Origin: a virus
IMG/VR virus record: IMGVR_UViG_3300012036_000004
Coordinates: 37,736 to 101,735 of that record
Direction: 5' to 3' (one strand)
Length of the DNA: 64,000 bases
Positions 1-49,306 of the stretch are shown here, one piece after another. The position numbers were made by a program, and so were the translations under genes. How positions within the stretch are numbered: the first letter of the stretch is position 1; every line of letters starts with the position of its first letter. The notes beneath the pieces were generated by a model, which ran no database searches, was not told where the DNA came from, and saw nothing but the letters and a program-made list of their open reading frames with translations.

Positions 1-3000
1 TCGGTTCTTCACTTTCTTGCGGGCGTCTGCTGCGCGGTGCCCTGACTGGACCAGTCCTTTGACGAGGAAAGGTTCGTACATCTTCCAGGCCATCTCCTCA
101 GGCATACCGACCTCGTCCATGTTCAGGTTGAGATCCGGAGCAATGGTTGCGCGGCCCGACAGGTCCTGACGTCGCTTCATCATGCGCGACTGGAAGTACC
201 CATGCTTCGGCGAGCCGGTGCCTGTGATTTGCTGAAGATGCCCCTTCGTTCCTCGCCCCTGGTTCTGCGGAGACACGGGGTCATTGAAGCCGAACAAAGC
301 ACCGACCGAGTCGTGCAGGTGTTTGCGTCGCTTCTTCCGATCGTCATCGGTGTCGAGCTCCTCGGGCGTCTCGGTAATGGACTCGTTTGCCAGCATCACG
401 TCTCGGTACAGGTAGTTTGCATCCGAGATGAGCATGGTCCCGTCGCTCGTGGGCATGATGGGGCGAATCGTCGGAGGCACGACCGGTACCTTCGACAGCA
501 CATAGGCGTCGCCCGCGGTCAGGTCTTCTTTGAGCAGAGCGTCGATGTACTTGATGCGCTTGACGGCATCGTCGAGCGTCGCGCCTCGAGCCGTTTTAAT
601 CTCCTGCTTCAGCTTCCGGCGTTCGCTCTTCAGGTCGATCTCGTTGAGCTTCTTTTTGACCTCAGACGCCCCCTTGTCATCTCGGAATGCGCGGAATTCA
701 TTCTTCGTCATCCCCAGCATCCGACGGGCCGGGTCTTCGAACACCGGATTCACCACCGGCTCCGCCAGGTTAATCTTGGAGTACTTCGTGCCGGTCAGTC
801 CGCCTGTCAGCGCGGGGTCAAACAGCCCTCCCTCCTCAGGCTGGAGCTGTGTAACGCCCTGGCGTTTCCGCGGCGTCACGAGCAGTGCGTTCTTCACTTC
901 GGTCTTTGCCATCGAGTCGATGTCGCGGTCGGTGAGCGGGGCCAGGCTGTGTCGTGAACCCTTCTTGTTCACTTTGATGCCTGCTCCGTGCAGCATGTGA
1001 TTGAACTTCTCGTAAGCGAAGTTCTCGCTCGGCATCGGAGCTGGAAGACCCAGTTGAATGCGGCGCCAGTACTCGTCGTTACGCTGTCCTTTAACGACCG
1101 CAGCCTCCTGCAGCACGTTTCGAGCGTTGTGCGCAAGGAGTGCGTTGAACTCCATCTTGCCCAGGGACTTCGCCCCCTCGTCACCGCCTTTGGTGGGCTG
1201 CATGTTGGAGTCGTACCCGGGGCCAATACCGCGAGCAGCGAAGTTGGTGTCGGTCGACTTGAACAGTTTGTAGGTGTACTGCCTCCCCACGTGGATGCCT
1301 GGGATTTTCTTTCCCGACATCGGGTCGTACACGGTTTCCTTGTCCTTGAGTCCGTTGTCCTTGAGTAGCTTCTTCGCCCACTTCACGTTGTCGTGGTCGG
1401 CGAACTGATCGATGATGACTGGCTTGCCTGTCTTTTCAGCGACCTTGCCGACCGCCGTCTCGAGAATCTGACTGGGGTTGATTCGAGTGATCACGCCTGC
1501 AGACGTCATCAACACGTCGATCGGCTTGCCGGCCTCGTCTTTCACCATCTGGTCGTCCGGGACGATCTTAGACACCACGCCTTTGTTCCCGTAACGCCCG
1601 GCCATTTTGTCCCCTACACCCATTGGCGCGTCCATCTTCACCGTGACGGTGATTTGTTTGTTGGTGACTGCGACGTCAATCACGGTGCCGGGATGGTCGT
1701 GATCCCACGTAATGGCCGCGTCCCGGTAAGGCTTCACCAGTGACTTGTGCAAGTTCCCCAGCATCTGCTGCTGGGCAGATGCCTGATCTTTTCGGATCGC
1801 AGAGATGAGGAGCTCACCGTGGTCCACCTGCTGGCCCTTCTTGATGATTCCCTTGGAGTCGAGCCGTTCGTACTCCGGACGCGAGTAGCGCGAGCCGAAG
1901 TAGGCCCGGTGCTTGTCCTTGTCTGTGGAGACCCCCTGGTCCAGCGACAGCGTCTCTTTGTACATGTGCCTCGAAGTCAGCTTCTTGGACGCAGACTCCG
2001 AGATCACGACAGCGTCGTTGGAGTTGTAACCGTAGTAGGGCATGTATCCCACCGACAGATTCTTCCCCAGAGCAAGCGTTCCGTTGCGAGTGAAGTTGGT
2101 CTCCGCCAGGGCCTGCCCCTGTTGGACTCGCTGGCCTTTCTTCACGTTGACGTCGTCGTGCATGTACGTCTTGGACATCAAGGGGAAGTCCGTAGCGTAA
2201 GGCACCTTGACGAGATCGTCTGTCTTGGCCGCGGCGGTCTTCATCCATGCAGAAAGGGATTTTTCCTGAGGCCCTTCAGCGCTTCGCTTGGAGCGATCAG
2301 GTCGGATGTAGATGTAGTCTTTGTCGATCTTCTCCACAGTGCCAGCGGTCGGCGACATGGGAACGATGAGCTCACCCATCTGTTTCTCGACAGTCTTCTC
2401 CGGGTCCCACGACCGAATTTGTACATAAGGCTCGTCTCGATCAATGAGCGGCAACGCCTGGGTGTGCATCTTGGACCCCATGATGTTTCGGTTGCCCTGC
2501 GCGCTGTTCAAAAACGGCACGAGATTCGTCGTCGGGCTGTACATCCGGGAGGGGTCGGGGACTTCATAGTCCACCTCCGAAGAGTTTACTGAGTAAACCT
2601 GTCCGTTCTTCAGTGCGTCGATCTTCTTGCGCCCGCCCAGCTTCTGGTTCGGGAACGCGACGGTTTTCTCCATCAGCTTCGACGCCTTCACGTACTCGAG
2701 TTTCCCGTTCTTGGTGTTGCGCATCTGGGCGTACATGTTTCCTTCGTCGTCACGCCGAGCGAACATCGAAGTTCGCACATCGATGCCTGCTTTCCCTGAT
2801 TCGGGCGTTCGCACCGGGTCAAGGATACCCAGATGGGAGTGATGCACGTCTCGAGCTTCGTCTGGTACGGCCAAAGTCGACGAAATACCCCCCTCACCTA
2901 GCGAGGTGACTTTAACGGCATGATCAACGATCTCCATCGGATTTATCTGCATCGGCGTCGCAGTGAGTGCGGACGTCGTCACAAAAGAGTGGAGGGATTT

Positions 3001-4011
3001 CGTGAAAGGAGACGACGGCATGATGTCCGAGACCTTCGGATTGTCCCCGGCCTTCCGAAGACGCATCTTGACCTTTCGAGAGATGTCTGGCGCTGCGTCT
3101 TTCTCAACTCGTTCCTTCAAAAACGACTCAACCGTGTGGATGGTCTTGAACGCAGTCGAGTCTCGATCGTCCTGCTCCTCTTTGTCGTTGTAGACGTTCA
3201 GAATCTTCTGACTGGCTCGCAGAAGCGTCTTGGGTTCGACCTTAGAGAACTTCTGACCCAGCGTGATGTTGGTGACCTCCGGATCGAGCTGCGTACGGTC
3301 GTACGAGTCCCGGATCGCCTCCAACATCTCCTGGTGATTCGGGTTGTCCTCCTGCAGAAAGCTTGGAATGAGCTTTTTGTAGAGCTTTCGGACGTACCGA
3401 GCTTCCTTGCCGGCGGCGTACTTCTTGTTGAGTTGAAGTACGTCCTTGCCCCAATACTTGGTGATCTCTGTATCCCGCACCCCCAGGGCTGACAGGGCCC
3501 CGTAGAGCGGAATCTTGCTTGAGCCGTACTCCATGAAGATGAGACCGCGGTCTGGGTCGAGCGACAACCGGAAGTTACGTCCCTTGGCGAGGTTGAATGC
3601 GGACTCGAGCTCTCCGTTGCCGCGCTGCCGTGTGTAGACCCCGGGCTTGATTCGAACCTGGTTGGAGACGGTGTAGTCATTGCCCTTCATGATGAAGGTG
3701 TGCCGCTCTGTGAAGTACGGGATCTGCGCCAGAGTTCGCTTGCTCGTATCCAGTATCTTACCCGTCTTCTTGTCACGAACAACGACCGTACCCTTCATCG
3801 GCTCGACCAAGGTCTTGCCCTCCAGGATGGCTTTCTTCTGCTCGGAGGGAGAGAACACTTTGTTCGTCGGTTCGACGTCCTGAATCTCCACAATGTGCTT
3901 ATCTGTCTCGACCCGAAAGTCCTGAATCCCCTTCCTGACGTGGTCTCGAATCATCTCACGCCGTTCTTCAGCGCGCCCCATCAGGGGATAGAGTGTTGGG
4001 TTTTTCGCCAC
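1..4011 (-). CDS. rpoBC: DNA-directed RNA polymerase, fused beta-beta' subunit (3' end truncated by window edge)
   Basis: Absent from the ORF track because it runs off the window. GTG at 4011 follows GGAGG. Beta motifs translated by hand: IPYFTERHTFIMKGNDYTVSNQ, RDVHHSHLGILDPVRTPE, NRNIMGSKMHTQALP, GYNSNDAVVISE, GDKMAGRYGNKGVVSKI, GAKSLGKMEFNAL. Beta' motifs follow in the same frame: GGLFDP, VPVVPPTIRP, SDANYLYRDV, KRRQDLSGRATI, GMPEEMAWKMYEPF. Confidence 0.93.
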   Translation of the reverse strand, partial: MAKNPTLYPLMGRAEERREMIRDHVRKGIQDFRVETDKHIVEIQDVEPTNKVFSPSEQKKAILEGKTLVEPMKGTVVVRDKKTGKILDTSKRTLAQIPYFTERHTFIMKGNDYTVSNQVRIKPGVYTRQRGNGELESAFNLAKGRNFRLSLDPDRGLIFMEYGSSKIPLYGALSALGVRDTEITKYWGKDVLQLNKKYAAGKEARYVRKLYKKLIPSFLQEDNPNHQEMLEAIRDSYDRTQLDPEVTNITLGQKFSKVEPKTLLRASQKILNVYNDKEEQDDRDSTAFKTIHTVESFLKERVEKDAAPDISRKVKMRLRKAGDNPKVSDIMPSSPFTKSLHSFVTTSALTATPMQINPMEIVDHAVKVTSLGEGGISSTLAVPDEARDVHHSHLGILDPVRTPESGKAGIDVRTSMFARRDDEGNMYAQMRNTKNGKLEYVKASKLMEKTVAFPNQKLGGRKKIDALKNGQVYSVNSSEVDYEVPDPSRMYSPTTNLVPFLNSAQGNRNIMGSKMHTQALPLIDRDEPYVQIRSWDPEKTVEKQMGELIVPMSPTAGTVEKIDKDYIYIRPDRSKRSAEGPQEKSLSAWMKTAAAKTDDLVKVPYATDFPLMSKTYMHDDVNVKKGQRVQQGQALAETNFTRNGTLALGKNLSVGYMPYYGYNSNDAVVISESASKKLTSRHMYKETLSLDQGVSTDKDKHRAYFGSRYSRPEYERLDSKGIIKKGQQVDHGELLISAIRKDQASAQQQMLGNLHKSLVKPYRDAAITWDHDHPGTVIDVAVTNKQITVTVKMDAPMGVGDKMAGRYGNKGVVSKIVPDDQMVKDEAGKPIDVLMTSAGVITRINPSQILETAVGKVAEKTGKPVIIDQFADHDNVKWAKKLLKDNGLKDKETVYDPMSGKKIPGIHVGRQYTYKLFKSTDTNFAARGIGPGYDSNMQPTKGGDEGAKSLGKMEFNALLAHNARNVLQEAAVVKGQRNDEYWRRIQLGLPAPMPSENFAYEKFNHMLHGAGIKVNKKGSRHSLAPLTDRDIDSMAKTEVKNALLVTPRKRQGVTQLQPEEGGLFDPALTGGLTGTKYSKINLAEPVVNPVFEDPARRMLGMTKNEFRAFRDDKGASEVKKKLNEIDLKSERRKLKQEIKTARGATLDDAVKRIKYIDALLKEDLTAGDAYVLSKVPVVPPTIRPIMPTSDGTMLISDANYLYRDVMLANESITETPEELDTDDDRKKRRKHLHDSVGALFGFNDPVSPQNQGRGTKGHLQQITGTGSPKHGYFQSRMMKRRQDLSGRATIAPDLNLNMDEVGMPEEMAWKMYEPFLVKGLVQSGHRAADARKKVKNR

Positions 4012-4034
4012 GTGGCCTCCTGGGAAGTTCCGCC

Positions 4035-4040
4035 ATTATA
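4035..4040 (-). promoter_or_regulatory. Candidate -10 element (TATAAT) upstream of the RNAP gene
   Basis: Minus strand reads TGCGTATAAT 24 nt before the GTG start; no canonical -35 seen. Confidence 0.45.
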
Positions 4041-4099: not shown

Positions 4100-4131
4100 G
4101 GTATAAGATATTGATACAGAAAACACGCTCT
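4100..4131 (+). promoter_or_regulatory. Duplicated promoter/leader element, copy 1
   Basis: GGTATAAGATATTGATACAGAAAACACGCTCT is 29/32 identical to 4479-4510 and lies 93 nt before the ATG at 4193. Confidence 0.6.
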
Positions 4132-4192: not shown

Positions 4193-4369
4193 ATGGAACA
4201 TCTCGACCAGCCGCAGACGAAGCCGAAATCGACCTTCAACAAGGTCGTGGATGGTGTTCTCAAAGGCGCGAAGATTGGCGCCGGAGTCTGGCTGGCGACC
4301 AGCATTGTGAAGCGAGACTGGATGGGGGCATTCAATGCCGTCACCGCGCTCGTCGTGCTCAGGGACTAG
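4193..4369 (+). CDS. Small hypothetical (possibly membrane) protein, 58 aa
   Basis: MEHLDQPQTKPKSTFNKVVDGVLKGAKIGAGVWLATSIVKRDWMGAFNAVTALVVLRD*; purine-rich RBS; below the ORF-track cutoff. Confidence 0.6.
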   Translation: MEHLDQPQTKPKSTFNKVVDGVLKGAKIGAGVWLATSIVKRDWMGAFNAVTALVVLRD

Positions 4370-4391
4370 GGTCTCTAAGCACGTCATTTCA

Positions 4392-4478
4392 CCCAAAAAC
4401 CCCCTATATCGGGGGTTATTTTTTGCCCTAAAAAGGGCCCAAAAACCCCCTAAAATCACAAATATAGGGGTCTTTTTT
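4392..4478. repeat. AT-rich homopolymer region with direct and inverted repeats
   Basis: CCCAAAAACCCCCT occurs twice, with complementary GGGGG/TTTTTT tracts. Confidence 0.55.
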
Positions 4479-4510
4479 GGTATAAGATATTGACACGAAA
4501 AACACGCTCT
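4479..4510 (+). promoter_or_regulatory. Duplicated promoter/leader element, copy 2
   Basis: GGTATAAGATATTGACACGAAAAACACGCTCT; extended -10-like TGnTATAAG; 94 nt before the ATG at 4573. Confidence 0.6.
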
Positions 4511-6559: not shown

Positions 6560-8281
6560 TTAGCTCACCATCTCCTGCGCTGCGTTTCGTTCCTGCAGCT
6601 GAATCTCTTCGAGTCGTTGAATGACGACGGAGTACATGACGTAGTCTTCGGCCTGTAGCGAAGAGAGCACCGAACGGCGCTGTCCTTCGTCGATCTGGCT
6701 GAGCTCCATCGCCATCTGATCGGCCTCGGCGATGACGGCCTGCTGATCGTACTCGAGACCTGTCGATCCTGCAGAAGCCTCGGCCTGCGCCTGGTCTGCG
6801 AGCGTCGACTGCAGCTCTTCCATCTTTCGGCTGAGCTTCGCCTGTCGTCGCGTCTGCTCGAGCATCTCCTGTTCTTTTTGCTCGATCTCGTCGTCGTAAT
6901 CGAGGTCGAGAATCTCCGATACGGTGCGTCGCGACACCAGGTCGTACTGCGCGTCCGCCTGCATGATGAGAGACTTCTGCTGAATATCGTCGATGAACTT
7001 GAAGTTCGTGATATCCGCCGAAACTTTCGCCCATCCGAGGTAGTCTGCAATCGAGTCGCAGATCCACTGTAGCAGGTCTCTGAGGTCAGCTGAGTGCGAC
7101 AACAGCTGATTCTCCAGCATCCGTAATGTGACCGAACTTCCGGTAAAAGAGAGTCCCCCATATAGGAACTCCCGAGGCACGCCCAGACCGGCGATGATGT
7201 TGTTCTCGACTTCCTGCACCTCTCCGAGCGTCAAGAGCGTGCGGCCCTGTCCGCCCATCTGCGTGACGCCCAGCGCAACCGGGGCGAACATGATATGGAG
7301 CGGGTCTTTTCGCCACTGCTTGATGTTCTGCTTGGTCTCGTCAATCCACTGCGCAAAGGCCAGTGTTTTGACGGGGTCGTTACTGCTCCCCGTCTGGGCG
7401 GGGTGAAGTACACGGAACGGCGTGAGGTGATCGAGTGCAATCGCTTCGTTCGACCTCCGCATGACCTCCGCGTAGTAGAACTGCTTCATCACCGAGATCA
7501 CTGATGGATAGCCCAGTGCTCCTCCAAGCCCCGCCGGTACGTCGCCTTTGAGGTGAAAGATTTTCGTGGGGTCGAAATGGAAAACCTGGTCGTCGTCCGC
7601 GGCTTCCAGGAACGCTTTCGGCGTCCCGTCGATCATGTGCCGATCTCCGTCCTTGATGGCGCTTCTCAGTTCCGCCGGGAGATCATAGTAATACTCAGTG
7701 TTGCCTGTGATGGGGTTGTGTTCGACGTCGATGTGTTTGGGGTCCCAGCAGATGACGTTCATGCGCTTGGGGTCATACACCTTGACGTCGCGCACCTCGC
7801 TCAGACGCGTCGTCGACGACGCCTTGCACTGCATGCAGTTGTACTTGAACGTTCGCTTCTTGTAGTCGAACTTGTAGTCTTTGATGCGCCGAATGTCCCA
7901 CATCATCCCGCAGCCTTTGCACGGGACGATGCGTTTGAACGGGAAGTACAGAGAGTAAAAAGCGTTCCCGTACAGGGTGCGGTTCTTGGACGCACCCTTC
8001 AGCACCACCTTCGCCCGAAGAGTCTCGAGCACAATCTCGGAGTACTTCGTTCGGAGCGACTCGGACTCCGTCTTGAACGTGATGTCCGTGATGACGTAGT
8101 CAGCGAGTTTTTGAAGAGCGATGAAAATGTGGGGGGAGTTGTAGTAAATATACTCCGTCCACCGGTACATATCCTTCAACTTCCGAGGGACGAAGCCCGT
8201 CAGAAAATTGAACATCGGGTTCGGATGCGCATTCGACTGCCCGAGAATGTCGAAAGGCTCTCTGCTGATATCACCACTCAT
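6560..8281 (-). CDS. Phage portal protein with Zn-ribbon-like insertion
   Basis: 573 aa; portal-like segments (YYNSPHIFIALQKL, LYGNAF, IFHLK, IIAGLGVPREFL), coiled-coil C-terminus, CKGC...CMQC insert. Confidence 0.7.
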   Translation of the reverse strand: MSGDISREPFDILGQSNAHPNPMFNFLTGFVPRKLKDMYRWTEYIYYNSPHIFIALQKLADYVITDITFKTESESLRTKYSEIVLETLRAKVVLKGASKNRTLYGNAFYSLYFPFKRIVPCKGCGMMWDIRRIKDYKFDYKKRTFKYNCMQCKASSTTRLSEVRDVKVYDPKRMNVICWDPKHIDVEHNPITGNTEYYYDLPAELRSAIKDGDRHMIDGTPKAFLEAADDDQVFHFDPTKIFHLKGDVPAGLGGALGYPSVISVMKQFYYAEVMRRSNEAIALDHLTPFRVLHPAQTGSSNDPVKTLAFAQWIDETKQNIKQWRKDPLHIMFAPVALGVTQMGGQGRTLLTLGEVQEVENNIIAGLGVPREFLYGGLSFTGSSVTLRMLENQLLSHSADLRDLLQWICDSIADYLGWAKVSADITNFKFIDDIQQKSLIMQADAQYDLVSRRTVSEILDLDYDDEIEQKEQEMLEQTRRQAKLSRKMEELQSTLADQAQAEASAGSTGLEYDQQAVIAEADQMAMELSQIDEGQRRSVLSSLQAEDYVMYSVVIQRLEEIQLQERNAAQEMVS

Positions 8282-13000: not shown

Positions 13001-14224
13001 ATGAATACAGACGGAAAAAACATGCCACATTTACCCATATCTAAGATCTTGGCGGAGGACAATATCCGCCTCAACATCGACCCGGACTCTATCGAGGAGC
13101 TGGCCGAGTCGGTTCTCGCCGTGCACACGTTGAGCAACGGTGAGAAGACTTTGCTGCAGCCAATCACGTTGCAGAAGCTCGACAAACCAACGGAGGAGGG
13201 TCACACCCACCAGCTGCGTTACGGCTTCCGTCGTTACGCCGCCATGAAGTTTCTTCTGGAGAAGCACCCGGAGAAATGTTTCTGGGCCGCCAACGTGCCC
13301 TACCACCTCGACGACGCTGTCTACAACGAGGAGGACAATGCGACGACGCATTTCCGTCTCGTCGAGAACATTCAGCGCGAAGACATGTCGCTGCTCGAGG
13401 AGGCGATGGCGATGAAGCGAATCCAGAAAGAGCAAGGGATGAAGCAGTCCGAGCTCGCCAAGATGCTCGGTAAGAGCAAGGGCTGGGTGTCGCAACGTCT
13501 CGCGCTGCTCCGCATGGACGAGTCCGTACAGCTCGGCGTCCAGGAAGGAAAGCTGGGGCAGGCTCACGTCCGTGAGCTCGCACGCATCAAGAAGAAAAAG
13601 GACCAGGCCGACGTCGCGACCAAGCTTCTCCAAGACGAGTCGCCGTCCGTCGCAAAGGTCAAACGCGCCGTGAAGAAAGCACTCGGCGAGACCGAACCGA
13701 AAGAGAAGACGAAAGAGAAGACGAAAGAGAAGCCTGCCGAGAAGAATGACGACTCCGAAGAGGACTGGGAAATGTCCGAAGAGGAGCGCTCTAAGCAGGA
13801 TATCGATCAGCTCAAGACAGGTAAGAAAAGCAAGCCCGTCGAAGAAGAAAACGACGAGACGCCTGTCGAAGAGGCAGAGGAGTCCGAGGAGTCGGAAGAA
13901 TCGGAGGGAGAAGAGGAGGTGTCCTCAACCACCGCTCCTGCGCCTTCCGAGCCGTCTCGAGGAGACGTGCTGCAGACGATGTCTCACGAGGAGAAACTGA
14001 AGTTTCTCGAGGAAGACACAGAGCGTCGACTCGCAATGGAGTTCGACGGACGTAAGGGCGATCTCGAAGCTGAAATCTTGCGGTGCTCGCAAGCAGCAGT
14101 CGACGCCGTGAAGAAGGGCGACGCAGAGAAGGCCGCATACTACGCCGGAGCAGAGCAAGCGCTCAAATTCGCCCTGGGCTCGATCAAATCGATCCGCTAC
14201 GTAAAGCGAAAAGTAGCAAGTTAG
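13001..14224 (+). CDS. ParB/Spo0J-like protein
   Basis: IEELAESV...LLQPI, GFRRYAA (ParB box II-like), VENIQREDMS.LEEA, HTH QSELAKMLGKSKGWVSQRL. Confidence 0.88.
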   Translation: MNTDGKNMPHLPISKILAEDNIRLNIDPDSIEELAESVLAVHTLSNGEKTLLQPITLQKLDKPTEEGHTHQLRYGFRRYAAMKFLLEKHPEKCFWAANVPYHLDDAVYNEEDNATTHFRLVENIQREDMSLLEEAMAMKRIQKEQGMKQSELAKMLGKSKGWVSQRLALLRMDESVQLGVQEGKLGQAHVRELARIKKKKDQADVATKLLQDESPSVAKVKRAVKKALGETEPKEKTKEKTKEKPAEKNDDSEEDWEMSEEERSKQDIDQLKTGKKSKPVEEENDETPVEEAEESEESEESEGEEEVSSTTAPAPSEPSRGDVLQTMSHEEKLKFLEEDTERRLAMEFDGRKGDLEAEILRCSQAAVDAVKKGDAEKAAYYAGAEQALKFALGSIKSIRYVKRKVAS

Positions 14225-31884: not shown

Positions 31885-33569
31885 TGGACTACGAAGATGA
31901 AGATTTCTACTTCTGCGGGACTCACGTCGAGTACGCCGAGGAGTATCGCCCTGAGCATTGTTCCGACGATTTCCGCCCCGAAGACGCCTCTGAAGATTGG
32001 TCTCCGCCAAGAGAAGCTCCGTCTTCCTACCGAACGCGGCAAAAAGCGCCGCTGGTGGCGCTCAGCATTCCGCCTCGAGTCGAGGACCCGGAGAAGAGAA
32101 CCATGGCGTTGCTTGAGGAGATGCAATCACGCATGCGCGCTGAGTTTAGTCTCGACTTCGATCCGACGCTCTATCTCACTCTCCTGCCTCGCGTTCCCGG
32201 GCAGCTTTACCGGTGGATCAACCAGGACCGGTTGCGCGATTTCTACGACAATCACACGCATCCGGGCGTCGACATCTACCGGAAAAAGAATGACCAAAAC
32301 GAATGGGTCTACGCGAAGGCATCCGTCGCACCGCTCCGGTTTGACGAGTCCTGGCAGGCAGTCATCCATTTCGATCCGGCTGTGTTCGCGACGGAAGACT
32401 GGCGAGCAGGGTTTTCTGAGTACGCAATTCACGCCCTGTATCAGGGCGAGCTTCACTCCGTGTCTTTCCAAGACATGCACGACGCCTGCCCTCTCATCGG
32501 GGTCCTCATCGACCCTGGCTTCGATAGCTGCGTAGGCTGCGCACACAACGATATATTCTGCCGAACTCGATTCCTCCGGGAAGCTTTGGACGCCGTGAGC
32601 CCCGACATCCTGGATCGCACGCTCTGGTTCCGGCAATGGCGGCTAGGTAGCGGAGCAGTCAGTCTTCGAGGCGACGCCAGGTGGTCCTCGAAGCAGGTGT
32701 CCAACTTCCTGGATAAAATCGACATCGACGGGTGGTACGGAGTAAGCACCAACGCCGTCAACGCAGGTCGGGACAGCTCGATCTCCCGGATAAAGATGGC
32801 GTGGCCGTCCGTTGATCGTCAGACAAAGAAGAGACGTGATGCAGCGAAAAAAGGCGCCAAGACACGCAAGGCACATGACGAAGTGTGCGGCAGAGGCGAC
32901 GAGGCCTGCGTGCTTAGAAAGTACGACTGCATGGCGTGGAGAGGCTACAGCGTGCGGTGCACGCACCGACGGCAGCACGAAGACGAGCTCAACGAAGAAG
33001 CACTCGCGCGGCTTTCGAAAATGGGTCAGAAGACGCCCGTTCACGAGATCCAGCGAAGCGCTGTGCTGAAAATGAATGAGTTCTCCTACGTCGCCGACAC
33101 AGGACGTATTCGAACCGGTTACTTCGCGGGCGTCTCACGTCCACGCAGCCAGGGTAAAGTACTCTGGCGCATGATGCGCGGCACGCAGCGAGATCGCATG
33201 CTCTACACCTTCCCAAGCTGGGAAGCCATGCGTCGGTGGTTTCGGCGATGGGCTCCTTGGGAGCTTTCACAGCTTGATGAGGCAGATGCTCGAGCCGAAG
33301 AGATCGAAGTCTCTGACCTGATACGGTGCGTGTTCTACGCCGCTCAGAGCATGACCAGCATCAAGGTCAGCGGAGGTTTCGGGGGCTCGTCTTACGCCGT
33401 GGAGTGTTACGAGCCTATCGTATCAACCCGAGACGACGGCACGTCTTACGTCACCGCCGTCATGCCTCAGGGCGGCGGCTACAGTCTCGGACTCCTCAAG
33501 AACATGAAAGATTTCTGGCATGTCCACCGGCGGGGCTTCACACGTCAAGACGGGATTTTGCCTGCATGA
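31881..33569 (+). CDS. Hypothetical protein translationally coupled to RT
   Basis: 562 aa, ATGA overlap with the RT stop, Cys clusters. Confidence 0.7.
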   Translation: MMDYEDEDFYFCGTHVEYAEEYRPEHCSDDFRPEDASEDWSPPREAPSSYRTRQKAPLVALSIPPRVEDPEKRTMALLEEMQSRMRAEFSLDFDPTLYLTLLPRVPGQLYRWINQDRLRDFYDNHTHPGVDIYRKKNDQNEWVYAKASVAPLRFDESWQAVIHFDPAVFATEDWRAGFSEYAIHALYQGELHSVSFQDMHDACPLIGVLIDPGFDSCVGCAHNDIFCRTRFLREALDAVSPDILDRTLWFRQWRLGSGAVSLRGDARWSSKQVSNFLDKIDIDGWYGVSTNAVNAGRDSSISRIKMAWPSVDRQTKKRRDAAKKGAKTRKAHDEVCGRGDEACVLRKYDCMAWRGYSVRCTHRRQHEDELNEEALARLSKMGQKTPVHEIQRSAVLKMNEFSYVADTGRIRTGYFAGVSRPRSQGKVLWRMMRGTQRDRMLYTFPSWEAMRRWFRRWAPWELSQLDEADARAEEIEVSDLIRCVFYAAQSMTSIKVSGGFGGSSYAVECYEPIVSTRDDGTSYVTAVMPQGGGYSLGLLKNMKDFWHVHRRGFTRQDGILPA

Positions 33570-33570
33570 A

Positions 33571-34626
33571 TCAGGGAGGCGTGTAGTTAGGACAGAGCGC
33601 CACGATGTCGGATAGAAGCTGTGCCTGCTCCTGCTGGAGTGTGGCCAGCACCGACGATATCGTGGCCTCTGCCTGCGCGCACGTTTCTTTATCTGACAGA
33701 GCCTGATTGACCTCATTCTGAGCGTCGTCACGTGCAGTAGTCTGCGCTGCGACTCGGGTCCCAATCTCAGAAGACTCAGCAATTGCGACCTGGATGGCCG
33801 TGTCGAACGTAATCTTTGCCGGCGCGTACTCGTCATAGTACCCCGAGTACAGCGTGCCTGCCGGGCCCGGCGGGTCACTCAGCAACTCGTCGTCCATGTC
33901 CTGGACTTCGGGTGCCGGGCTCATCGAACCTCGGTTCAATGCCCACGCTTCCAACGCAGAGACGACGTCTCCCGTCAGGTTCTCACTCACTGTCTTGAAT
34001 GCCTGCATCGCACTCAGTGCAGCGTTGATACTGGTCTGCGTACGCTTGAGCGCGTCGAGTGCAGCTTGCTGGTCGTCTCGAACCTGGAGCGCAACCTGAT
34101 AGGCCGCGTCGAGATCTGCGCAGTCCGCTGTTTTCTCCGTCAGGAATTCTTGCTGTGCCTCGACCTCTTCGGTCTTCGCCACGTAGTCTTCGATAAGCGG
34201 CGTCAGTACACCCACGGAAGGTTCTGGGAACTCGAAGATCTCTGGCGTCGGGTTCGCCTCAAACTGCGTGTCGTAGGTGATGTAATCATCGACCAGGGTG
34301 TTGACCTGTTCGGCAAGGAAATCCTTTGCCGTGATGGCTTCCTGGATGTCTTCGTAGACCTTGGTGACGACGCTGGTTCGGTAGAAGTCCTGGCCGTTTC
34401 GTAGCGCTGTGGGTCGGTCTATCTCCCACTCAAACAAGTCTCCCACGCCGGCAACTCGCTCGAGCTCGTCTTGTTTCGGGTCATCTGTCAAGACGATCCG
34501 CATCAAGAAGAACCCCGCATCTGGGACTTCTCCACGATCCGTGATCGCCATTTCCAATTCATACTTCGCGACCGCGTCACTGACGACGGCCTTTCGAAGC
34601 TGCTGTGCGAACGAGGAGGTAGCCAT
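33571..34626 (-). CDS. Hypothetical coiled-coil (probable virion) protein
   Basis: 351 aa, acidic, at the end of a late operon. Confidence 0.65.
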   Translation of the reverse strand: MATSSFAQQLRKAVVSDAVAKYELEMAITDRGEVPDAGFFLMRIVLTDDPKQDELERVAGVGDLFEWEIDRPTALRNGQDFYRTSVVTKVYEDIQEAITAKDFLAEQVNTLVDDYITYDTQFEANPTPEIFEFPEPSVGVLTPLIEDYVAKTEEVEAQQEFLTEKTADCADLDAAYQVALQVRDDQQAALDALKRTQTSINAALSAMQAFKTVSENLTGDVVSALEAWALNRGSMSPAPEVQDMDDELLSDPPGPAGTLYSGYYDEYAPAKITFDTAIQVAIAESSEIGTRVAAQTTARDDAQNEVNQALSDKETCAQAEATISSVLATLQQEQAQLLSDIVALCPNYTPP

Positions 34627-34985
34627 CAGGGCGTCGGGTCAATGGTGAGTGTGTCTGGCGTCAGAAACGTCGACAGCCCTGCTTCGTACGCGTCGACGAG
34701 CGAGCCCAGGTCCGCCTGCACTTCTGCCTTGGCTGCGTCTGCGGTGTCGATGTCGGGGTAATTCGCCGACGCCGTGGTCAATCGATACCACGCTTTTGTC
34801 GGGTCTTTGGAAGTCGGCCAGATGAGATCTCCAGGATTCGCGACATGGTCGAATTCTTCCGTAGAGAACTTGTGAACGAAAACTGCCGTCGGCATGTCAG
34901 TCGAGCCCGTCGCAGTCCACGTCACCGTGTAGCTGCCGTCGAGCTCGGCGGTGCCGACAACATCAACTATGATTTGAGCAGGCAT
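34626..34985 (-). CDS. Hypothetical (probable virion) protein
   Basis: 119 aa, GAGG RBS; resembles the N-terminal part of the downstream ORF (W..., YR...K/N.Y.DI..A..AK). Confidence 0.65.
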   Translation of the reverse strand: MPAQIIVDVVGTAELDGSYTVTWTATGSTDMPTAVFVHKFSTEEFDHVANPGDLIWPTSKDPTKAWYRLTTASANYPDIDTADAAKAEVQADLGSLVDAYEAGLSTFLTPDTLTIDPTP

Positions 34986-36221: not shown

Positions 36222-36700
36222 TCAGATGCCTTGGATTGGATGTACACGCCTAGCCCGACGCCCGCGCCGAGCCCTACCACGAGTGCCGTGATGAGCCAGG
36301 GCAGTCCCCCGCCCCAGATCGACATCGCCTCTGCTTCGGCGGCTCGAGTCGTTGCGTCTTCATATTTTACGAAGAGCTCGCTGTATGCTGTCTCCCAGCG
36401 TACGGCGTCCTCTTCGTAAACGCCGGCAGCCTTCTCAGAAGCCGCGGCGCTCTTTTTTAGCTCAGACACGATCGCGGGCCACAATGTCATGTGTGCGTCG
36501 AAAAGCCACGCATACTGCACGCGCATCTGGAGGTACCGCTTGAAGTTTTCCTGGTCGAAGCACTTCATGGGCGGCTCGCCACACATCGTCGTACTTGGCT
36601 TCTCGACGAACTCGAGCTCAGGCGCACTGGCCGGCTCTTGCGCAAGGAGCGGTGCCGGGACCAGGAGCAAGACAATCAGAAGTGGCGCAACAAGCTTCAT
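36218..36700 (-). CDS. Secreted/membrane protein (possible spanin-like)
   Basis: N-terminal signal peptide, helical core, C-terminal TM segment. Confidence 0.5.
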   Translation of the reverse strand: MKLVAPLLIVLLLVPAPLLAQEPASAPELEFVEKPSTTMCGEPPMKCFDQENFKRYLQMRVQYAWLFDAHMTLWPAIVSELKKSAAASEKAAGVYEEDAVRWETAYSELFVKYEDATTRAAEAEAMSIWGGGLPWLITALVVGLGAGVGLGVYIQSKASE

Positions 36701-37086
36701 CGGATGTCCTCTTCAATCTCGTCGAGCTCTTCCCAGCTGTCAGCGCCCTTCACCGCAGCTTCGAGCTCGCGTCGACTCTTCGATGACTTGACGAGTTTGG
36801 CGCTGAGTTTGTCCGCTTCCCGCGACGCAAGATGTGCTTCTCGCATGTACTTCTTCGCGAGCTCTCGGTCCTGCTCCGACTGCGCCAAAAGACGTGACTG
36901 GGAGGCGCGTGCTTCAGCGATCTCGAGGGCAGCCCGGTTGCGTGCTTCTTGTTTCTTTGCCAGAGACCACAGGGACAGCACAATAATACCGAGCCCGGCA
37001 GCCGCGACCCACCACACCCACTTGGTGTACCAGGATCGCTCCTCCGTCTTCTTCTTGAGCTTGGTGTAGGTCTTAGCGAGGCTCAT
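36697..37086 (-). CDS. Membrane-anchored coiled-coil protein (possible i-spanin-like)
   Basis: N-terminal TM followed by a coiled coil. Confidence 0.5.
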   Translation of the reverse strand: MSLAKTYTKLKKKTEERSWYTKWVWWVAAAGLGIIVLSLWSLAKKQEARNRAALEIAEARASQSRLLAQSEQDRELAKKYMREAHLASREADKLSAKLVKSSKSRRELEAAVKGADSWEELDEIEEDIR

Positions 37087-37448
37087 TCGTTCTCCTCGAT
37101 GGACTCGAGGTACGCGTCGTAGGCATTTTCTCTGTTGGTACCGTTTCGAAGCGACTCCTCGTCCCGGATACCGAGAATCATCAGCACATCTTTCTGTTGG
37201 TCCGCGTACAGCGCACTGAACTCAGATCCTGTGAGCGGAATATTCGTCAGAAGGTGCGGTTCCTCAGCGACGTCGACTCGAGTCAGCTTCGCCTTTTCCG
37301 CCTTGGCGTAGTTTCGAAGATGAAGCGGTTCGCGAAGCCCTCCGGCCAGCACAAGTGTGCCTCCCGGAGGTGTCGGTTCTCCTTCCATATCGAAGTAGAG
37401 CGGCTCATTGGATGTATTTTCAACGCGGTAAATCATGTCCTGCCTCAA
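37083..37448 (-). CDS. Hypothetical protein
   Basis: 121 aa, coupled on both sides. Confidence 0.65.
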   Translation of the reverse strand: MRQDMIYRVENTSNEPLYFDMEGEPTPPGGTLVLAGGLREPLHLRNYAKAEKAKLTRVDVAEEPHLLTNIPLTGSEFSALYADQQKDVLMILGIRDEESLRNGTNRENAYDAYLESIEENE

Positions 37449-40219: not shown

Positions 40220-40234
40220 TCTTCACTCGCTCAC

Positions 40235-40747
40235 TCAAAGTACGATGGTGTACTGGATGTCCCACTCAAACCGGATGCCGATGTCGGCGGTCTTCACGAT
40301 CGGTGTTGTCAGTTGTCTTGCGGCGAGAACAGGTTGTCCGCCGCTGTTTCCGTCGTCCAGTGTGAACAACGCTACCGCTGAAATCGTCTGACCAACCGCG
40401 TCCAGTTTGCCCATTTCTGCTCGAAACTGCACGAGCCCTTCTACGCCTCCCACATCGATCGACACATCTGCGTCTCGGTCGAACACCTGCGTGAACACAA
40501 CCGTGCCGACCGTGCCTGTGTCTGTTGGAGCGGGCGCCGCCAACGGAGTCAGGCTCGACTCGACTCGAAGCTCATTAATCGCGAGCTCTTCGACCTGGAG
40601 CGTTGAACGCTGCGTAATCAGTTTCGCCAACTGCGTCAGATGCAGATACGTAATCTGATTCGACCGGTCAACGAGTAAATCCTCGCTTCCATCCGAGTTT
40701 ACGCGGTAAACGCGTATATGTCCTCTCGCGCGTGCGGGGTCTTTCAT
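40235..40747 (-). CDS. Baseplate/tail-collar-like structural protein
   Basis: N..T...ALFT...AAR...IVKT..I.I.F.W.I pattern; position between baseplate and fibre genes. Confidence 0.55.
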   Translation of the reverse strand: MKDPARARGHIRVYRVNSDGSEDLLVDRSNQITYLHLTQLAKLITQRSTLQVEELAINELRVESSLTPLAAPAPTDTGTVGTVVFTQVFDRDADVSIDVGGVEGLVQFRAEMGKLDAVGQTISAVALFTLDDGNSGGQPVLAARQLTTPIVKTADIGIRFEWDIQYTIVL

Positions 40748-40750
40748 CCG

Positions 40751-46179: not shown

Positions 46180-46631
46180 TACGTACTCACCTTCCCTGCA
46201 AGGATGACCTGCAGGCGCTGGCCCGCTTGATTCTGTATCAGAACATACACAGATACCGAGCTGTTGTCCTCGAAGATGATGGACGTCAACTCTGCCGACT
46301 GTAGGATCTCCGTAGGGTCCTCAGGCGGAAAGCGAGACTGAATCGAATTGATGTCGGCCGTCGCCTTGGCCACCGAGCTGTATACGATCTGCTGGATGTC
46401 TGCCCGGTCCGTCACGTTCGAGCCGATGAGCCCTGCGAACGACGTTCCGTACTGGCGGCTGCTCAGGTCCGTTCCCTCTTCAGTGAGAAACGCCTTTATC
46501 CACTTGTTGATGAGCTTCTGAAGCCCGGCGATGCCGATGTGTTTCTGATAGCCATACGTGAACGTGCCTCGTTGTACGCCTTGCTCCACTTCCGGAAGGA
46601 GCTCAAAGTATGTGTCGTAGGTCGTAGGCAT
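46179..46631 (-). CDS. Baseplate wedge GPW/gp25-like protein
   Basis: G.QKL...IKAFLT..GTD....YGT.F..LIGS motif; directly upstream of baseplate J. Confidence 0.7.
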   Translation of the reverse strand: MPTTYDTYFELLPEVEQGVQRGTFTYGYQKHIGIAGLQKLINKWIKAFLTEEGTDLSSRQYGTSFAGLIGSNVTDRADIQQIVYSSVAKATADINSIQSRFPPEDPTEILQSAELTSIIFEDNSSVSVYVLIQNQAGQRLQVILAGKVST

Positions 46632-48229: not shown

Positions 48230-49306
48230 CTACACCATTTGGTCCTGAAACATGTCGACCAGTTGTCGCTTTCGGTACGACAGTTGCCCCTGCGTCAAGT
48301 TGGTCTTCTTACGCAATTCCTTGTTCGAGAGAATAGGCTTCCCCGAGTATCCTGTCGAGTGTTCGAAGATGAGCTTGTCTTCCGGATTCATGTCGTAATA
48401 GAGCATGTCGACCATGCCGTCGCCCGAATCTGAACCCCACACGCTCTGGTTCTCGAACATCCCCGCGCCCATGTCTCCGGACTCGATGAGCTCGGCATGC
48501 TGGGCCTGTTGCACTTTCGACAGCGTCTTGGGAGCCCACGCCAGGTGGTCCGCCAACTCCTGGTTGGTCGGCTCGCGCCCGTGGACGTCCATGAGTTGTT
48601 GATTCGCCTTGTGCAGATTCTGAACCTTGAGCTTCTTGTACTCAGGCAATCGCACTGCATCCTGGTGCGTGTAGACTTTGCGGGACAGCTTCTTGAGTCG
48701 ATTGGTGACGTGCGTTGCGAGCGCAGCCCCCGCATACGGGTCGTATGACTTGATGGCCTCGAGCGCCAAAGACTTCGCTTTCGACTCCAGCACCGGTCGT
48801 GCAATCGCTCCACTCCACTTGTTCACTTCGACCTGAATCACCGGGTCGAGTGCTTTCATCAGGGGCTTGAGATTCTGTTTGGACGGGTTCTTATTGTACT
48901 CCCGCCACAACTCGAGGTCCTTCTCTTTGCGCTCAGCCCGGGTCATCGAAGTCTTCTCGACTTCAGCCTCCGGGCGAAACCCAACCATGCCGAGTACGTC
49001 GTCGTCGGCACCTTTTCTCGGGTCGTGCGTCTCGTGCGTTGCTCGAGCCTCGAAGAATTGCGTTCGTGACTTGTTCGTGACGACGTCGGGCTTTCGACTG
49101 GACTCGATATTCGTGATCTTGACGCCTGTTTCTTCGGCGACTTCCCGCTCGGCGGCCTCCCGGGGTGTCTCGCCTGCTTCAATACCGCCGCCGGGTCGCT
49201 TAATCTCGTCGTCACCGGGCTCGGCGCCGGACAGCACATTGCCCTCATCGTCTCGGATGTTGACTTCGACGCGTTGGCGAAGTGCTTCGCTAAGTTTGTG
49301 GATCAT
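48230..49306 (-). CDS. Nudix hydrolase - sigma-70-family sigma factor fusion
   Basis: Nudix box GGIEAGETPREAAEREVAEETG. Sigma region 2 (LEAIKSYDP..GA.LATH), VRLP, region 3 (GREPTNQELA), region 4 (EDKLIF...Y...LSNKEL...LTQGQLS). Confidence 0.8.
   Translation of the reverse strand: MIHKLSEALRQRVEVNIRDDEGNVLSGAEPGDDEIKRPGGGIEAGETPREAAEREVAEETGVKITNIESSRKPDVVTNKSRTQFFEARATHETHDPRKGADDDVLGMVGFRPEAEVEKTSMTRAERKEKDLELWREYNKNPSKQNLKPLMKALDPVIQVEVNKWSGAIARPVLESKAKSLALEAIKSYDPYAGAALATHVTNRLKKLSRKVYTHQDAVRLPEYKKLKVQNLHKANQQLMDVHGREPTNQELADHLAWAPKTLSKVQQAQHAELIESGDMGAGMFENQSVWGSDSGDGMVDMLYYDMNPEDKLIFEHSTGYSGKPILSNKELRKKTNLTQGQLSYRKRQLVDMFQDQMV

What the first reader, a model, noticed from the sequence alone, without database searches (positions are those of the whole stretch)
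1..4011. Streamlined single-polypeptide beta-beta' RNA polymerase
Seen: a ~1010-aa beta moiety runs without a stop (...HGAGIKV-NKKGSRHSLAPLT, junction near 970) into beta' sequence. The beta' N-terminal Cys4 zinc-binding domain is missing (GGLFDPALTGG leads straight to KINLAEP), and the conserved beta KLxH reads KLFK. Established: bacterial rpoB/rpoC are separate except in a few lineages (Helicobacter, Wolbachia), and phiKZ-like phages split these subunits rather than fuse them. Inference: a bacterial-like but minimal phage RNAP, possibly alpha-independent.
Basis: partly seen in the sequence, partly recalled or inferred. Interest (0 to 1): 0.75.

Follow-up and report, generated by a model that had tools for sequence, protein, structure and literature searches.

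The report
Two-chain phage RNA polymerase, beta-beta'N fusion
This uncultured ~180-kb phage builds a bacterial-type RNA polymerase from two unusual chains (all of beta joined to the front half of beta-prime, and the back half made separately), with no alpha or omega gene found and its own sigma-like factor; it is the split branch of a large, apparently undescribed phage family whose deeper branches really do make the enzyme as one ~2,000-residue chain.

Summary
On the minus strand an ORF starts at window 4011 and runs off the window start. Beta (residues 1-1018) continues without stop or linker into beta-prime. The Cys4 zinc ribbon is replaced by a 7-residue loop, and the chain has no cysteine. 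KLNH reads KLFK.

The reading as one complete polypeptide is wrong for this phage. In the full 101.7-kb record the ORF ends at residue 1484, 87 residues after NADYDGD. A coupled 219-aa gene follows, then a separate gene for the beta-prime back half, which here carries a ~500-aa extra tail.

Contigs from four other runs cover the junction without indels. The 150 best of 711 strongly matching 50%-identity clusters span the junction. These include Salmonella phage Arash gp206/gp216 and Vibrio phages D69, D181 and D148.

True single-chain relatives of about 2,000 aa exist and branch basally, so the split looks derived. No alpha, omega or second RNAP gene was found in five records. A sigma-like gene, here fused to NUDIX, is present, and a complex model docks it on the clamp helices.

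Virion packaging is inferred only.

This scan has noted the same layout in at least six other genomes. I found no paper describing it.

The parts
1..4011 (-). First 1,337 codons of the 1,484-codon beta-beta'N gene. The whole gene is G000 37292-41746 and ends 444 nt before the window start.
   Evidence: Pfam; PDB hits to bacterial beta (E 1e-69) and beta' (E 1e-53)
958..4011 (-). Beta moiety, residues 1-1018, lacking the large lineage-specific inserts of E. coli beta (1342 aa)
1..957 (-). Beta-prime N-terminal moiety, residues 1019-1337 within the window. It continues to residue 1484 outside the window, with NADYDGD at 1391-1397.
925..987 (-). Fusion junction, residues ~1009-1029. The last beta strand and the first beta-prime strand are modelled as one hairpin. 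There is no linker, and beta-prime residues 1-17 are deleted.
   Evidence: Alignment. AF2 model pLDDT 86-89 at the junction. Independent contigs without indels.
757..831 (-). Site of the lost beta-prime zinc-binding domain: GGLFDPALTGG, then LTGTKYS, then KINLAEP (residues 1061-1085), with no Cys
1258..1269 (-). KLFK (residues 915-918), where cellular beta has KLNH. E. coli H1237 is replaced by Lys.
1579..1614 (-). Beta active-site motif GDKMAGRYGNKG (residues 800-811). The equivalents of E. coli K1065 and K1073 are kept.
2899..2979 (-). Equivalent of rifampicin cluster I (residues 345-371): Q513->A, F514->T, D516->M, S531->T, H526 kept
   Evidence: Alignment. Drug insensitivity is an inference from known resistance positions.
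4009..4040 (-). Start region: GTG start (4011-4009), AGGAGG (4021-4016) 4 nt upstream, TATAAT-like hexamer (4040-4035)
4100..4114 (-). Repeated 15-mer TCAATATCTTATACC ~90 nt upstream of the RNAP start. A second exact copy lies at 4479-4493, and a 1-mismatch copy at G000 3657. Candidate phage promoter element.
6560..8281 (-). Portal gene, upstream on the same strand as the RNAP gene. Arash and the Vibrio phages also have the portal just upstream of their RNAP gene.
   Evidence: 28% to Arash portal gp204, 33% to D69
48230..49306 (-). Candidate specificity subunit. 358-aa protein made of a NUDIX domain (residues 15-105) and a sigma-70-like module (region 3 at 230-268, HTH at 324-351). Homologue of the Arash gp10-like sigma.
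   Evidence: complex model

Best explanation
The gene encodes the large chain of a two-chain, bacterial-type, DNA-dependent RNA polymerase of a ~180-kb tailed phage.

Chain 1 (1,484 aa) is all of beta joined head-to-tail to the first third of beta-prime. It therefore carries both double-psi beta-barrels and all residues of the catalytic centre: the GDK..GNKG lysines and NADYDGD. Chain 2 is translated from a coupled gene two ORFs downstream. It supplies the bridge helix, the trigger loop, the second zinc site and the rest of the clamp and jaw.

The covalent beta-beta-prime tether plausibly replaces the alpha-dimer assembly platform and omega, for which no gene was found. The clamp zinc ribbon is deleted.

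Promoter specificity most likely comes from a phage sigma-like protein docking on the retained beta-prime clamp helices. In this phage that protein is fused to a NUDIX hydrolase.

In evolutionary terms, this is the split branch of a large phage family whose basal members make the whole enzyme as one chain. The likely order was separate beta and beta-prime, then a full fusion, then a secondary split after the beta-prime barrel.

Shown: the architecture, motif conservation, family distribution, no alpha or omega gene detected, and a single RNAP set per genome. Inferred: catalytic activity, alpha-independent assembly, sigma use, rifampicin insensitivity, and delivery inside the virion. I put virion delivery at about 0.55.
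For: ORF structure and stops. The TAATG overlap to the 219-aa gene, and GGAGG-N5-GTG overlapping its stop for beta'C, indicate one coupled operon.

Domains and homology. P0004 has exactly four Cys, which align with the Zn2 site.

Junction reality: four independent assemblies without indels. It is conserved in 120 homologues that end 84-94 aa after the NADxDGD motif. The representatives search gave 711 clusters at E<=1e-30, and all of the best 150 span the junction. The AF2 model is confident at the junction, and Foldseek's top hits are bacterial beta-prime and cyanobacterial gamma.

Cultured relatives with the same two genes: Arash gp206 (1525 aa) and gp216 (606 aa), and Vibrio D69/D181/D148. 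gp206 had the most spectra in the Arash particle proteome, with gp216 and sigma gp10 also detected (PMC10585845).

No alpha or omega gene, and one RNAP set.

Full-length cousins and polarity. Split forms make a nested clade of 93 with support 0.965. The Fitch root state is full-length, with 3 changes.

Sigma-like partner. The complex model scored 0.68 against a best control of 0.00. That mark was reached by 58 of 80 solved complexes and 2 of 110 mismatched pairs. Runs agreed in at least 40% of contacts, and partner pLDDT was at least 67. The interface lies on the clamp coiled-coil, P0002 ~1192-1235. This may reflect likeness to solved sigma-RNAP complexes.
Against: No biochemistry exists for any member of the family. 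No RNA run was available.

This record is only about 57% complete, so the absence of alpha, omega or a second RNAP rests on relatives: Arash and D181 (complete) and one record at 95%.

Host alpha or omega could still be borrowed.

The tree is rooted on only five cellular sequences, deep nodes are weak (0.37-0.45), and sampling was biased towards the query.

The Arash particle proteome came from a sucrose gradient and listed 116 proteins, including ribonucleotide reductases, so carry-over is possible.

The sigma-like protein passes Pfam's cut-off only for region 3.
Confidence: 0.8

Rival explanations
1. One reading: a complete single-polypeptide beta-beta-prime RNAP in this phage, continuing upstream of the window into the rest of beta-prime.
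For: The frame is open at the window edge. True single-chain relatives exist elsewhere in the family.
Against: A TAA stop follows residue 1484. Eight further stops lie in that frame before the beta'C gene. A 219-aa gene in another frame sits between them. All 66 motif-matched close homologues end 84-94 aa after the catalytic motif. Arash has nine genes between its two RNAP genes.
Confidence: 0.02
2. The fusion is an assembly, frameshift or gene-calling artefact, and beta and beta-prime are really separate genes.
For: None found. It was considered only because this is a single metagenomic contig.
Against: Contigs from four other runs, of different studies, cover the junction with no indels. The junction is conserved in isolates and in hundreds of clusters. 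There is no stop and no linker, and the junction is confidently modelled.
Confidence: 0.01
3. Same two-chain enzyme, but not packaged. It is made after infection, from host-type promoters, and serves middle and late transcription only, like a jumbo-phage non-virion RNAP.
For: A TATAAT-like hexamer and a strong ribosome-binding site lie upstream of the gene. It is the only RNAP in the genome, so it must also work inside the cell. The Arash particle preparation plainly carried non-structural enzymes.
Against: The genes lie between the portal and the head protease on the same strand. gp206 gave the most spectra of any Arash protein, more than the major capsid protein. In this subclade beta'C carries a ~500-aa Gly/Ala/Gln-rich tail like the neighbouring head-operon proteins. 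The sigma-like gene sits beside an M23/SLT wall hydrolase, as Arash gp10 sits near gp8.
Confidence: 0.4
4. The enzyme needs host alpha, and perhaps omega, as its assembly platform. It would then be a hybrid phage-host core rather than an alpha-independent one.
For: No phage alpha was found, yet the enzyme is closer to bacterial enzymes than to other phage ones.
Against: Jumbo-phage RNAPs work without alpha (PMC7598289). The covalent tether gives a simpler route to assembly. The family infects hosts as far apart as Salmonella, Vibrio and lake or salt-lake bacteria at 35% identity, which argues against dependence on one host's alpha.
Confidence: 0.12

Closest known systems
Salmonella phage Arash gp206 + gp216, with sigma factors gp10 and gp196 (OQ632216; PMC10585845), and Vibrio phages D69/D181/D148
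   Same: Same two-gene layout, same Cys-less junction, same end point after the catalytic motif, portal just upstream, and a gp10-like sigma. Identity is 35.8% over the whole large chain and 29.6% over beta'C.
   Different: The records annotate the genes only as 'RNA polymerase subunit beta', or as hypothetical in the Vibrio phages. The paper does not remark on the fusion. Arash beta'C is 606 aa and lacks the ~500-aa tail. Its two RNAP genes are 10 genes apart rather than coupled. Its sigma has no NUDIX domain, and a second sigma with a clear region 2 is present.
Natural RpoB-RpoC fusions of Helicobacter and Wolbachia, and the engineered E. coli fusion (from established knowledge)
   Same: The beta C-terminus is joined to the beta-prime N-terminus. 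Cellular-type fusions appear as distant hits at 26-30% identity (P0213-P0216).
   Different: Those are full-length (~2,900 aa), keep the zinc ribbon and the full domain set, and work with alpha2 and omega. Here beta-prime is cut after its barrel, the ribbon and beta-prime residues 1-17 are deleted, and no alpha or omega gene was found.
Jumbo-phage (phiKZ, AR9) multisubunit RNAPs
   Same: Phage-encoded, no alpha or omega, and beta-prime split after the catalytic barrel (PMC7598289).
   Different: Those split beta into two or three pieces and never fuse it to beta-prime. They come as two paralogous sets (virion and non-virion). They have no sigma, using gp68 or gp226 instead, and are far more diverged. 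Here there is one set, beta is intact and fused, a sigma-like factor is present, and similarity is clearly higher to bacterial enzymes.
Cyanobacterial and plastid gamma (RpoC1) / beta-prime (RpoC2) split
   Same: Beta-prime is divided downstream of the NADFDGD barrel. Gamma chains are among the best sequence and fold matches.
   Different: The cut here lies about 65-70 residues earlier: query end ~ gamma 552-558 of 624, or E. coli ~553. Beta is also a separate subunit in cyanobacteria.
mReC clade (Weinheimer & Aylward 2020, PMC7481178)
   Same: Metagenomic tailed phages with bacterial-like RNAP large subunits that branch outside cellular lineages.
   Different: mReC entries list separate beta and beta-prime proteins, each at least 800 aa with the motif in beta-prime, and gp23-type capsids (PF07068). 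None of five records of this family has PF07068. The paper does not mention a beta-beta'N fusion. A few listed pairs (for example 1487/1303 aa) might belong to this family, but I could not test this.

Membership tests
Bacterial-type multisubunit RNAP catalytic core (beta/beta-prime) | Beta double-psi barrel with the two active-site lysines (GDK..GNKG) | tested here: met
   GDKMAGRYGNKG at residues 800-811 aligns with E. coli K1065/K1073. Rpb2_6 E 1.5e-50.
Bacterial-type multisubunit RNAP catalytic core (beta/beta-prime) | Beta-prime barrel with NADFDGD | tested here: met
   NADYDGD at residues 1391-1397. The family uses NADYDGD or NLDYDGD.
Bacterial-type multisubunit RNAP catalytic core (beta/beta-prime) | Bridge helix, trigger loop and second zinc site | tested here: met
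   These lie on the separate chain P0004. Rpb1_4 and Rpb1_5 hits, and alignment to beta-prime 720-936 and 1198-1286. Four Cys at 218/274/281/284.
Bacterial-type multisubunit RNAP catalytic core (beta/beta-prime) | Alpha dimer and omega encoded alongside or used | tested here: not met
   PF01000, PF01193 and PF01192 gave no hit in 5 records, while all 14 control genomes hit. Use of host alpha is not testable here.
Bacterial-type multisubunit RNAP catalytic core (beta/beta-prime) | Beta-prime N-terminal Cys4 zinc-binding domain | tested here: not met
   It is replaced by a 7-aa loop, and the chain has 0 Cys. The loop region is Cys-free in 119 of 120 relatives.
Full-length RpoB-RpoC fusion (Helicobacter/Wolbachia type) | One ORF covering all of beta and all of beta-prime | tested here: not met
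   A stop follows residue 1484, with 8 stops before beta'C in that frame.
Jumbo-phage phiKZ/AR9-type RNAP | Beta split into two or more polypeptides, with two paralogous enzyme sets | tested here: not met
   Beta is intact and fused. There is a single Rpb1_2-bearing ORF per genome.
Jumbo-phage phiKZ/AR9-type RNAP | Beta-prime split after the barrel, with no alpha or omega | tested here: met
   PMC7598289
Arash-like two-chain phage RNAP family (defined here) | Direct beta to beta-prime junction with a Cys-less loop in place of the zinc ribbon | tested here: met
Arash-like two-chain phage RNAP family (defined here) | Large chain ends ~85-95 aa after NADxDGD, with a separate beta'C gene downstream | tested here: met
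Arash-like two-chain phage RNAP family (defined here) | gp10-like sigma companion, and portal just upstream | tested here: met
mReC (PMC7481178) | Separate beta and beta-prime of at least 800 aa each, and a gp23-type major capsid protein (PF07068) | tested here: not met
   The PF07068 search had no positive control, so that part is weak.
crAss-like gp66 / YonO single-chain two-barrel RNAPs | Highly diverged two-barrel enzyme without recognisable cellular beta/beta-prime domain sets | tested here: not met
   Canonical Pfam Rpb1 and Rpb2 domains, with E 1e-69 to bacterial beta.

The most novel reading that the evidence does not exclude
The family began as a self-sufficient single-chain (~2,000-aa) bacterial-type RNAP that needs neither alpha nor omega nor the clamp zinc ribbon. 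It uses only a ~235-aa sigma-like factor. In this phage the derived two-chain version, together with its NUDIX-sigma factor, is loaded into the capsid, with the beta'C tail and the coupled 219-aa protein acting as packaging or ejection modules. It is then injected to start transcription independently of the host. That would make it the simplest known sigma-dependent cellular-type transcription machine, and a virion enzyme of a new kind.
Probability: 0.3. Interest if true: 0.8.

Novelty: new variant of a known kind. Interest (0 to 1): 0.6.

Why it matters
All cellular RNAPs use an alpha-like platform. The only known exceptions, the jumbo-phage enzymes, are fragmented and very diverged.

This family stays close enough to bacterial enzymes to align residue by residue. 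Yet no alpha or omega gene was found, the clamp zinc ribbon is gone, both catalytic barrels are tethered in one chain, and a sigma-like factor is kept.

Because it has culturable members (Arash on Salmonella, D69-type phages on Vibrio), several questions become directly testable. How little is needed for sigma-dependent transcription? What do alpha and the zinc ribbon really contribute? Why was a one-chain enzyme later cut at nearly the same place as in cyanobacteria and jumbo phages?

A compact one- or two-gene bacterial-type RNAP could also be a useful tool.

Tried and rejected
- No RNA holder was listed among the sequencing runs, so nothing can be said on expression.
- Sigma70 region 2 (PF04542) and Arash gp196 found nothing in this record or its two close relatives.
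- The weak region 4 hit at window 13430-13501 lies in a ParB-like HTH protein, not a sigma.
- PHROGs on ten neighbouring proteins named only a head protease.
- The protein Atlas gave no usable lead for the beta'C tail.
- Foldseek of the isolated 605-aa fragment only recovered bacterial beta-prime and gamma, at low TM.
- Ralstonia phage RP13, YerA41 and Carin-5 belong to a different, fully split RNAP group.
- The mReC paper, the jumbo-phage RNAP review, the Iyer et al. jumbo-phage survey, the Arash paper and keyword searches gave no description of a beta-beta'N fusion. The library is not exhaustive.
- The PF07068 search had no positive control.
- No broad phylogeny against many bacterial phyla was attempted. 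Only five cellular outgroups were used.
- Read-through of the TAA was checked and rejected.


Full report
WHAT IS THERE

The window is the last 64 kb of a 101,735-bp IMG/VR virus record that CheckV rates 57% complete. The DNA before the window start could therefore be read. The minus-strand frame that is open from window 4011 to 1 continues for 444 nt and ends at TAA. This gives a 1,484-aa protein, P0002, at G000 37292-41746. The GTG start is preceded by AGGAGG four bases upstream and by a TATAAT-like hexamer.

Pfam finds the beta domains Rpb2_2, Rpb2_3 and Rpb2_6 at residues 141-942. It then finds the beta-prime domains Rpb1_1 and Rpb1_2 from residue 1130 to 1417 in the same chain. The best solved relatives are bacterial beta (E 1e-69) and bacterial beta-prime or cyanobacterial gamma (E 1e-53 to 1e-50).

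I aligned the chain to Salmonella RpoB plus RpoC, which share E. coli numbering. The end of beta (residue 1342) falls on residue 1018. Beta-prime residues 1-17 are missing and there is no linker.

The beta-prime zinc-binding domain (C70, C72, C85, C88) is replaced by the loop LTGTKYS, between GGLFDPALTGG and KINLAEPVVNP. The whole chain has no cysteine. KLNH reads KLFK, so H1237 becomes Lys. The active-site lysines (GDKMAGRYGNKG) are kept.

In the rifampicin pocket, Q513, F514 and D516 are replaced by A, T and M. Drug insensitivity is an inference from known resistance positions.

An AlphaFold2 model of residues 880-1484 has mean pLDDT 80.6. It models the junction confidently (86-89) as a hairpin formed by the last beta strand and the first beta-prime strand. 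Its fold matches are bacterial beta-prime and gamma.

NADYDGD lies at residues 1391-1397, and the chain stops 87 residues later, at about E. coli beta-prime 553.

The stop overlaps the ATG of a 219-aa Gly/Lys-rich gene as TAATG. That gene's stop is overlapped by the start of the next gene, most likely GTG behind GGAGG-N5. This next gene encodes a protein of 1,103-1,107 aa, P0004.

The first ~610 residues of P0004 are the rest of beta-prime. They begin at about E. coli residue 572 and carry Rpb1_4, Rpb1_5, the bridge helix and trigger loop region. Exactly four cysteines align with the second zinc site.

In the frame of the large chain, eight stops lie between the two RNAP genes, so read-through is excluded.

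The last ~500 residues of P0004 are a Gly/Ala/Gln-rich tail with no family match. This tail is conserved only in the two closest relatives and is absent from Arash and the Vibrio phages.

The enzyme is therefore made of two chains, not one.

IS IT REAL

Logan contigs of four other runs, from salt-lake and lake-water metagenomes of different studies, cover window 845-1919 and most of the gene. They show single-base differences only, with no indels or joints.

The 120 best database homologues (at least 51% identical over residues 850-1484) all span the junction, and 119 of them lack cysteine there. The 66 with a regex-matched motif end 84-94 residues after it.

A search of 1.84 billion cluster representatives with residues 930-1200 gave 1,203 hits, 711 of them at E<=1e-30. 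All of the best 150 match across the junction in one stretch.

RELATIVES WITH NAMES

In the phage collection, only Salmonella phage Arash (gp206, 1,525 aa, 35.8% identical) and Vibrio phages D69, D181 and D148 cover the whole chain. Arash gp216 (606 aa) and the Vibrio homologues match the beta'C part.

The portal gene lies just upstream of the RNAP gene in all of them and also here, at window 6560-8281. A head-protease gene lies further down the same strand.

The Arash paper reports gp206 as the protein with the most spectra in gradient-purified particles. It also detected gp216 and the sigma-like gp10. However, it lists 116 proteins including metabolic enzymes, and the authors themselves allow for carry-over.

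Neither that paper nor the GenBank records note that 'beta' is a beta-beta'N fusion.

NO ALPHA OR OMEGA GENE FOUND, ONE ENZYME, A SIGMA-LIKE PARTNER

Profiles for alpha (PF01000, PF01193) and omega (PF01192) hit nothing in this record, its two relatives (one 95% complete), Arash or D181. They hit all 14 control genomes.

Each genome has a single beta-prime barrel gene and no T7-type polymerase above cut-off.

Using the Arash gp10-like protein as query, I found a homologue here at window 48230-49306 (E 1.7e-28). It is a 358-aa protein with three parts:
- a NUDIX domain at residues 15-105 (44 bits);
- sigma-70 region 3 at residues 230-268 (28.5 bits, above the cut-off);
- a C-terminal HTH.

It has weak PDB matches to SigA/RpoD regions 2.4-3. 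It sits beside an M23/SLT wall hydrolase.

Its ~235-aa sigma-like module occurs on contigs of the same length as those bearing fused RNAPs. The NUDIX fusion is seen only here and in one relative.

A complex prediction of beta'N (residues 1019-1484) with the sigma-like module gave these figures:
- score 0.68 against a best control of 0.00;
- that mark was reached by 58 of 80 solved complexes and 2 of 110 mismatched pairs;
- runs agreed in at least 40% of contacts, and partner pLDDT was at least 67.

The interface falls on the beta-prime clamp coiled-coil (about residues 1192-1235), which is the canonical sigma region 2 site. Because sigma-RNAP complexes are solved, this shows likeness rather than proven binding.

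SINGLE-CHAIN COUSINS AND POLARITY

A search for longer proteins found 93 relatives of 2,598-3,357 aa.
- Forty-four contain the beta'C part; four of them (P0213-P0216) are cellular-type fusions. In the nine phage-type forms I aligned segment by segment, it follows beta'N colinearly within about 5-20 residues. Many also contain inteins or homing-endonuclease domains, and in several the intein sits at the NADxDGD motif.
- The rest are two-chain-type large subunits lengthened by inteins.

Among the 150 best representatives, 97 end where this chain ends, 32 are full-length (many 1,990-2,080 aa), and 20 are fragments. All share the same Cys-less junction.

I built a FastTree (LG+gamma, 149 sequences, 1,415 columns, rooted on five cellular sequences). 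The full-length forms are basal and paraphyletic. The split forms, including Arash, make up a nested clade of 93 with support 0.965. Two small full-length pairs sit inside that clade. Fitch parsimony gives a full-length root and three changes.

Since cellular beta-prime is unsplit, the simplest history is separate genes, then a full fusion, then a split after the barrel. Deep nodes are weak and sampling was biased towards the query, so I hold this at about 0.7.

COMPARISON WITH WHAT IS KNOWN

The enzyme works like a bacterial core plus sigma, but it fails three membership features of that family: alpha, omega and the zinc ribbon.

It shares the lack of alpha and omega and the post-barrel beta-prime split with phiKZ/AR9 enzymes (PMC7598289). 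It differs from them in having an intact, fused beta, a single enzyme set and a sigma-like factor.

The cut lies about 65-70 residues before the cyanobacterial gamma/beta-prime boundary.

It is not the Helicobacter/Wolbachia type, which is full-length and keeps the ribbon.

It does not fit the published mReC description, which has separate subunits and gp23-type capsids.

I found no paper describing the architecture.

This scan has noted it before. The other window of this genome (e1-6010801) and at least six other genomes carry notes on it, and two were followed up with the same main conclusions. The additions here are the single-chain cousins and the polarity of the split, the read-level check, the NUDIX-sigma companion and its docking model.

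VERDICT

This is a new variant of a known kind: a phage multisubunit RNAP for which no alpha or omega gene was found. It belongs to a large family that seems undescribed in the literature but has sequenced, culturable members. Virion delivery, alpha independence, sigma use and rifampicin insensitivity remain inferences.

Noticed in passing
window 48230-49306 (-): Sigma-like factor fused to an N-terminal NUDIX hydrolase domain. Relatives have only the ~235-aa sigma-like module, and the fusion is seen only here and in P0366. It could couple initiation to RNA 5'-end or nucleotide hydrolysis.
   Followed up: partly
G000 33329-34800 (before the window; L002 5594-7090, -): The beta'C protein carries a ~500-aa C-terminal tail: a glycine-zipper-like hydrophobic stretch, four PTQGQP repeats and a Gln-rich end. 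It is conserved (30-50% identity) only in the two closest relatives and is absent in Arash and the Vibrio phages.
   Followed up: partly
G000 36633-37292 (L002 8898-9557, -): A 219-aa Gly/Lys-rich protein with GVGK repeats is translationally coupled between the two RNAP genes (TAATG at its start, and an overlapped stop). It has no family match and is weakly conserved in the two closest relatives only.
   Followed up: partly
window 4100-4114 and 4479-4493 (-); G000 3657-3671 (-): The 15-mer TCAATATCTTATACC occurs with conserved upstream GAGCGTGTTTT in the two window copies. One copy lies ~90 nt before the RNAP start. Between the two window copies lie GC-rich hairpins with T runs (about 4380-4470) and a small plus-strand ORF (about 4193-4385).
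   Followed up: partly
relatives P0125-P0212; L010 10525-11473 (Vibrio phage D181): The RNAP genes of this family are hot spots for mobile insertions. Inteins (PF14528, PF14890, PF05204) are common, and in several aligned relatives one sits at the NADxDGD motif. In Vibrio phages D181 and D148 a ~950-nt insertion with a homing endonuclease interrupts the gene; D69 lacks it.
   Followed up: partly
L007 9740-10083; L008 2829-3145; proteins P0009, P0013, P0052: In-frame domain insertions occur in the beta part of relatives. There is a ~110-aa insertion after residue ~580 in the two closest relatives. Other relatives (P0009, P0013, P0072) carry GNAT acetyltransferase domains (PF13508/PF00583). Some carry PF18823 and PF00719 (the latter is the pyrophosphatase family, from memory). 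This phage has none of them.
   Followed up: no
window 46631-48217 (-): A 528-aa protein with SLT transglycosylase and M23 peptidase domains lies next to the sigma-like gene. This mirrors the Arash arrangement of cell-wall hydrolase gp8 near gp10.
   Followed up: no
window 13001-14224 (+): A 407-aa ParB-like HTH protein with an acidic, Glu/Lys-rich middle. It gave a sub-threshold sigma region 4 hit but is not a sigma factor.
   Followed up: partly
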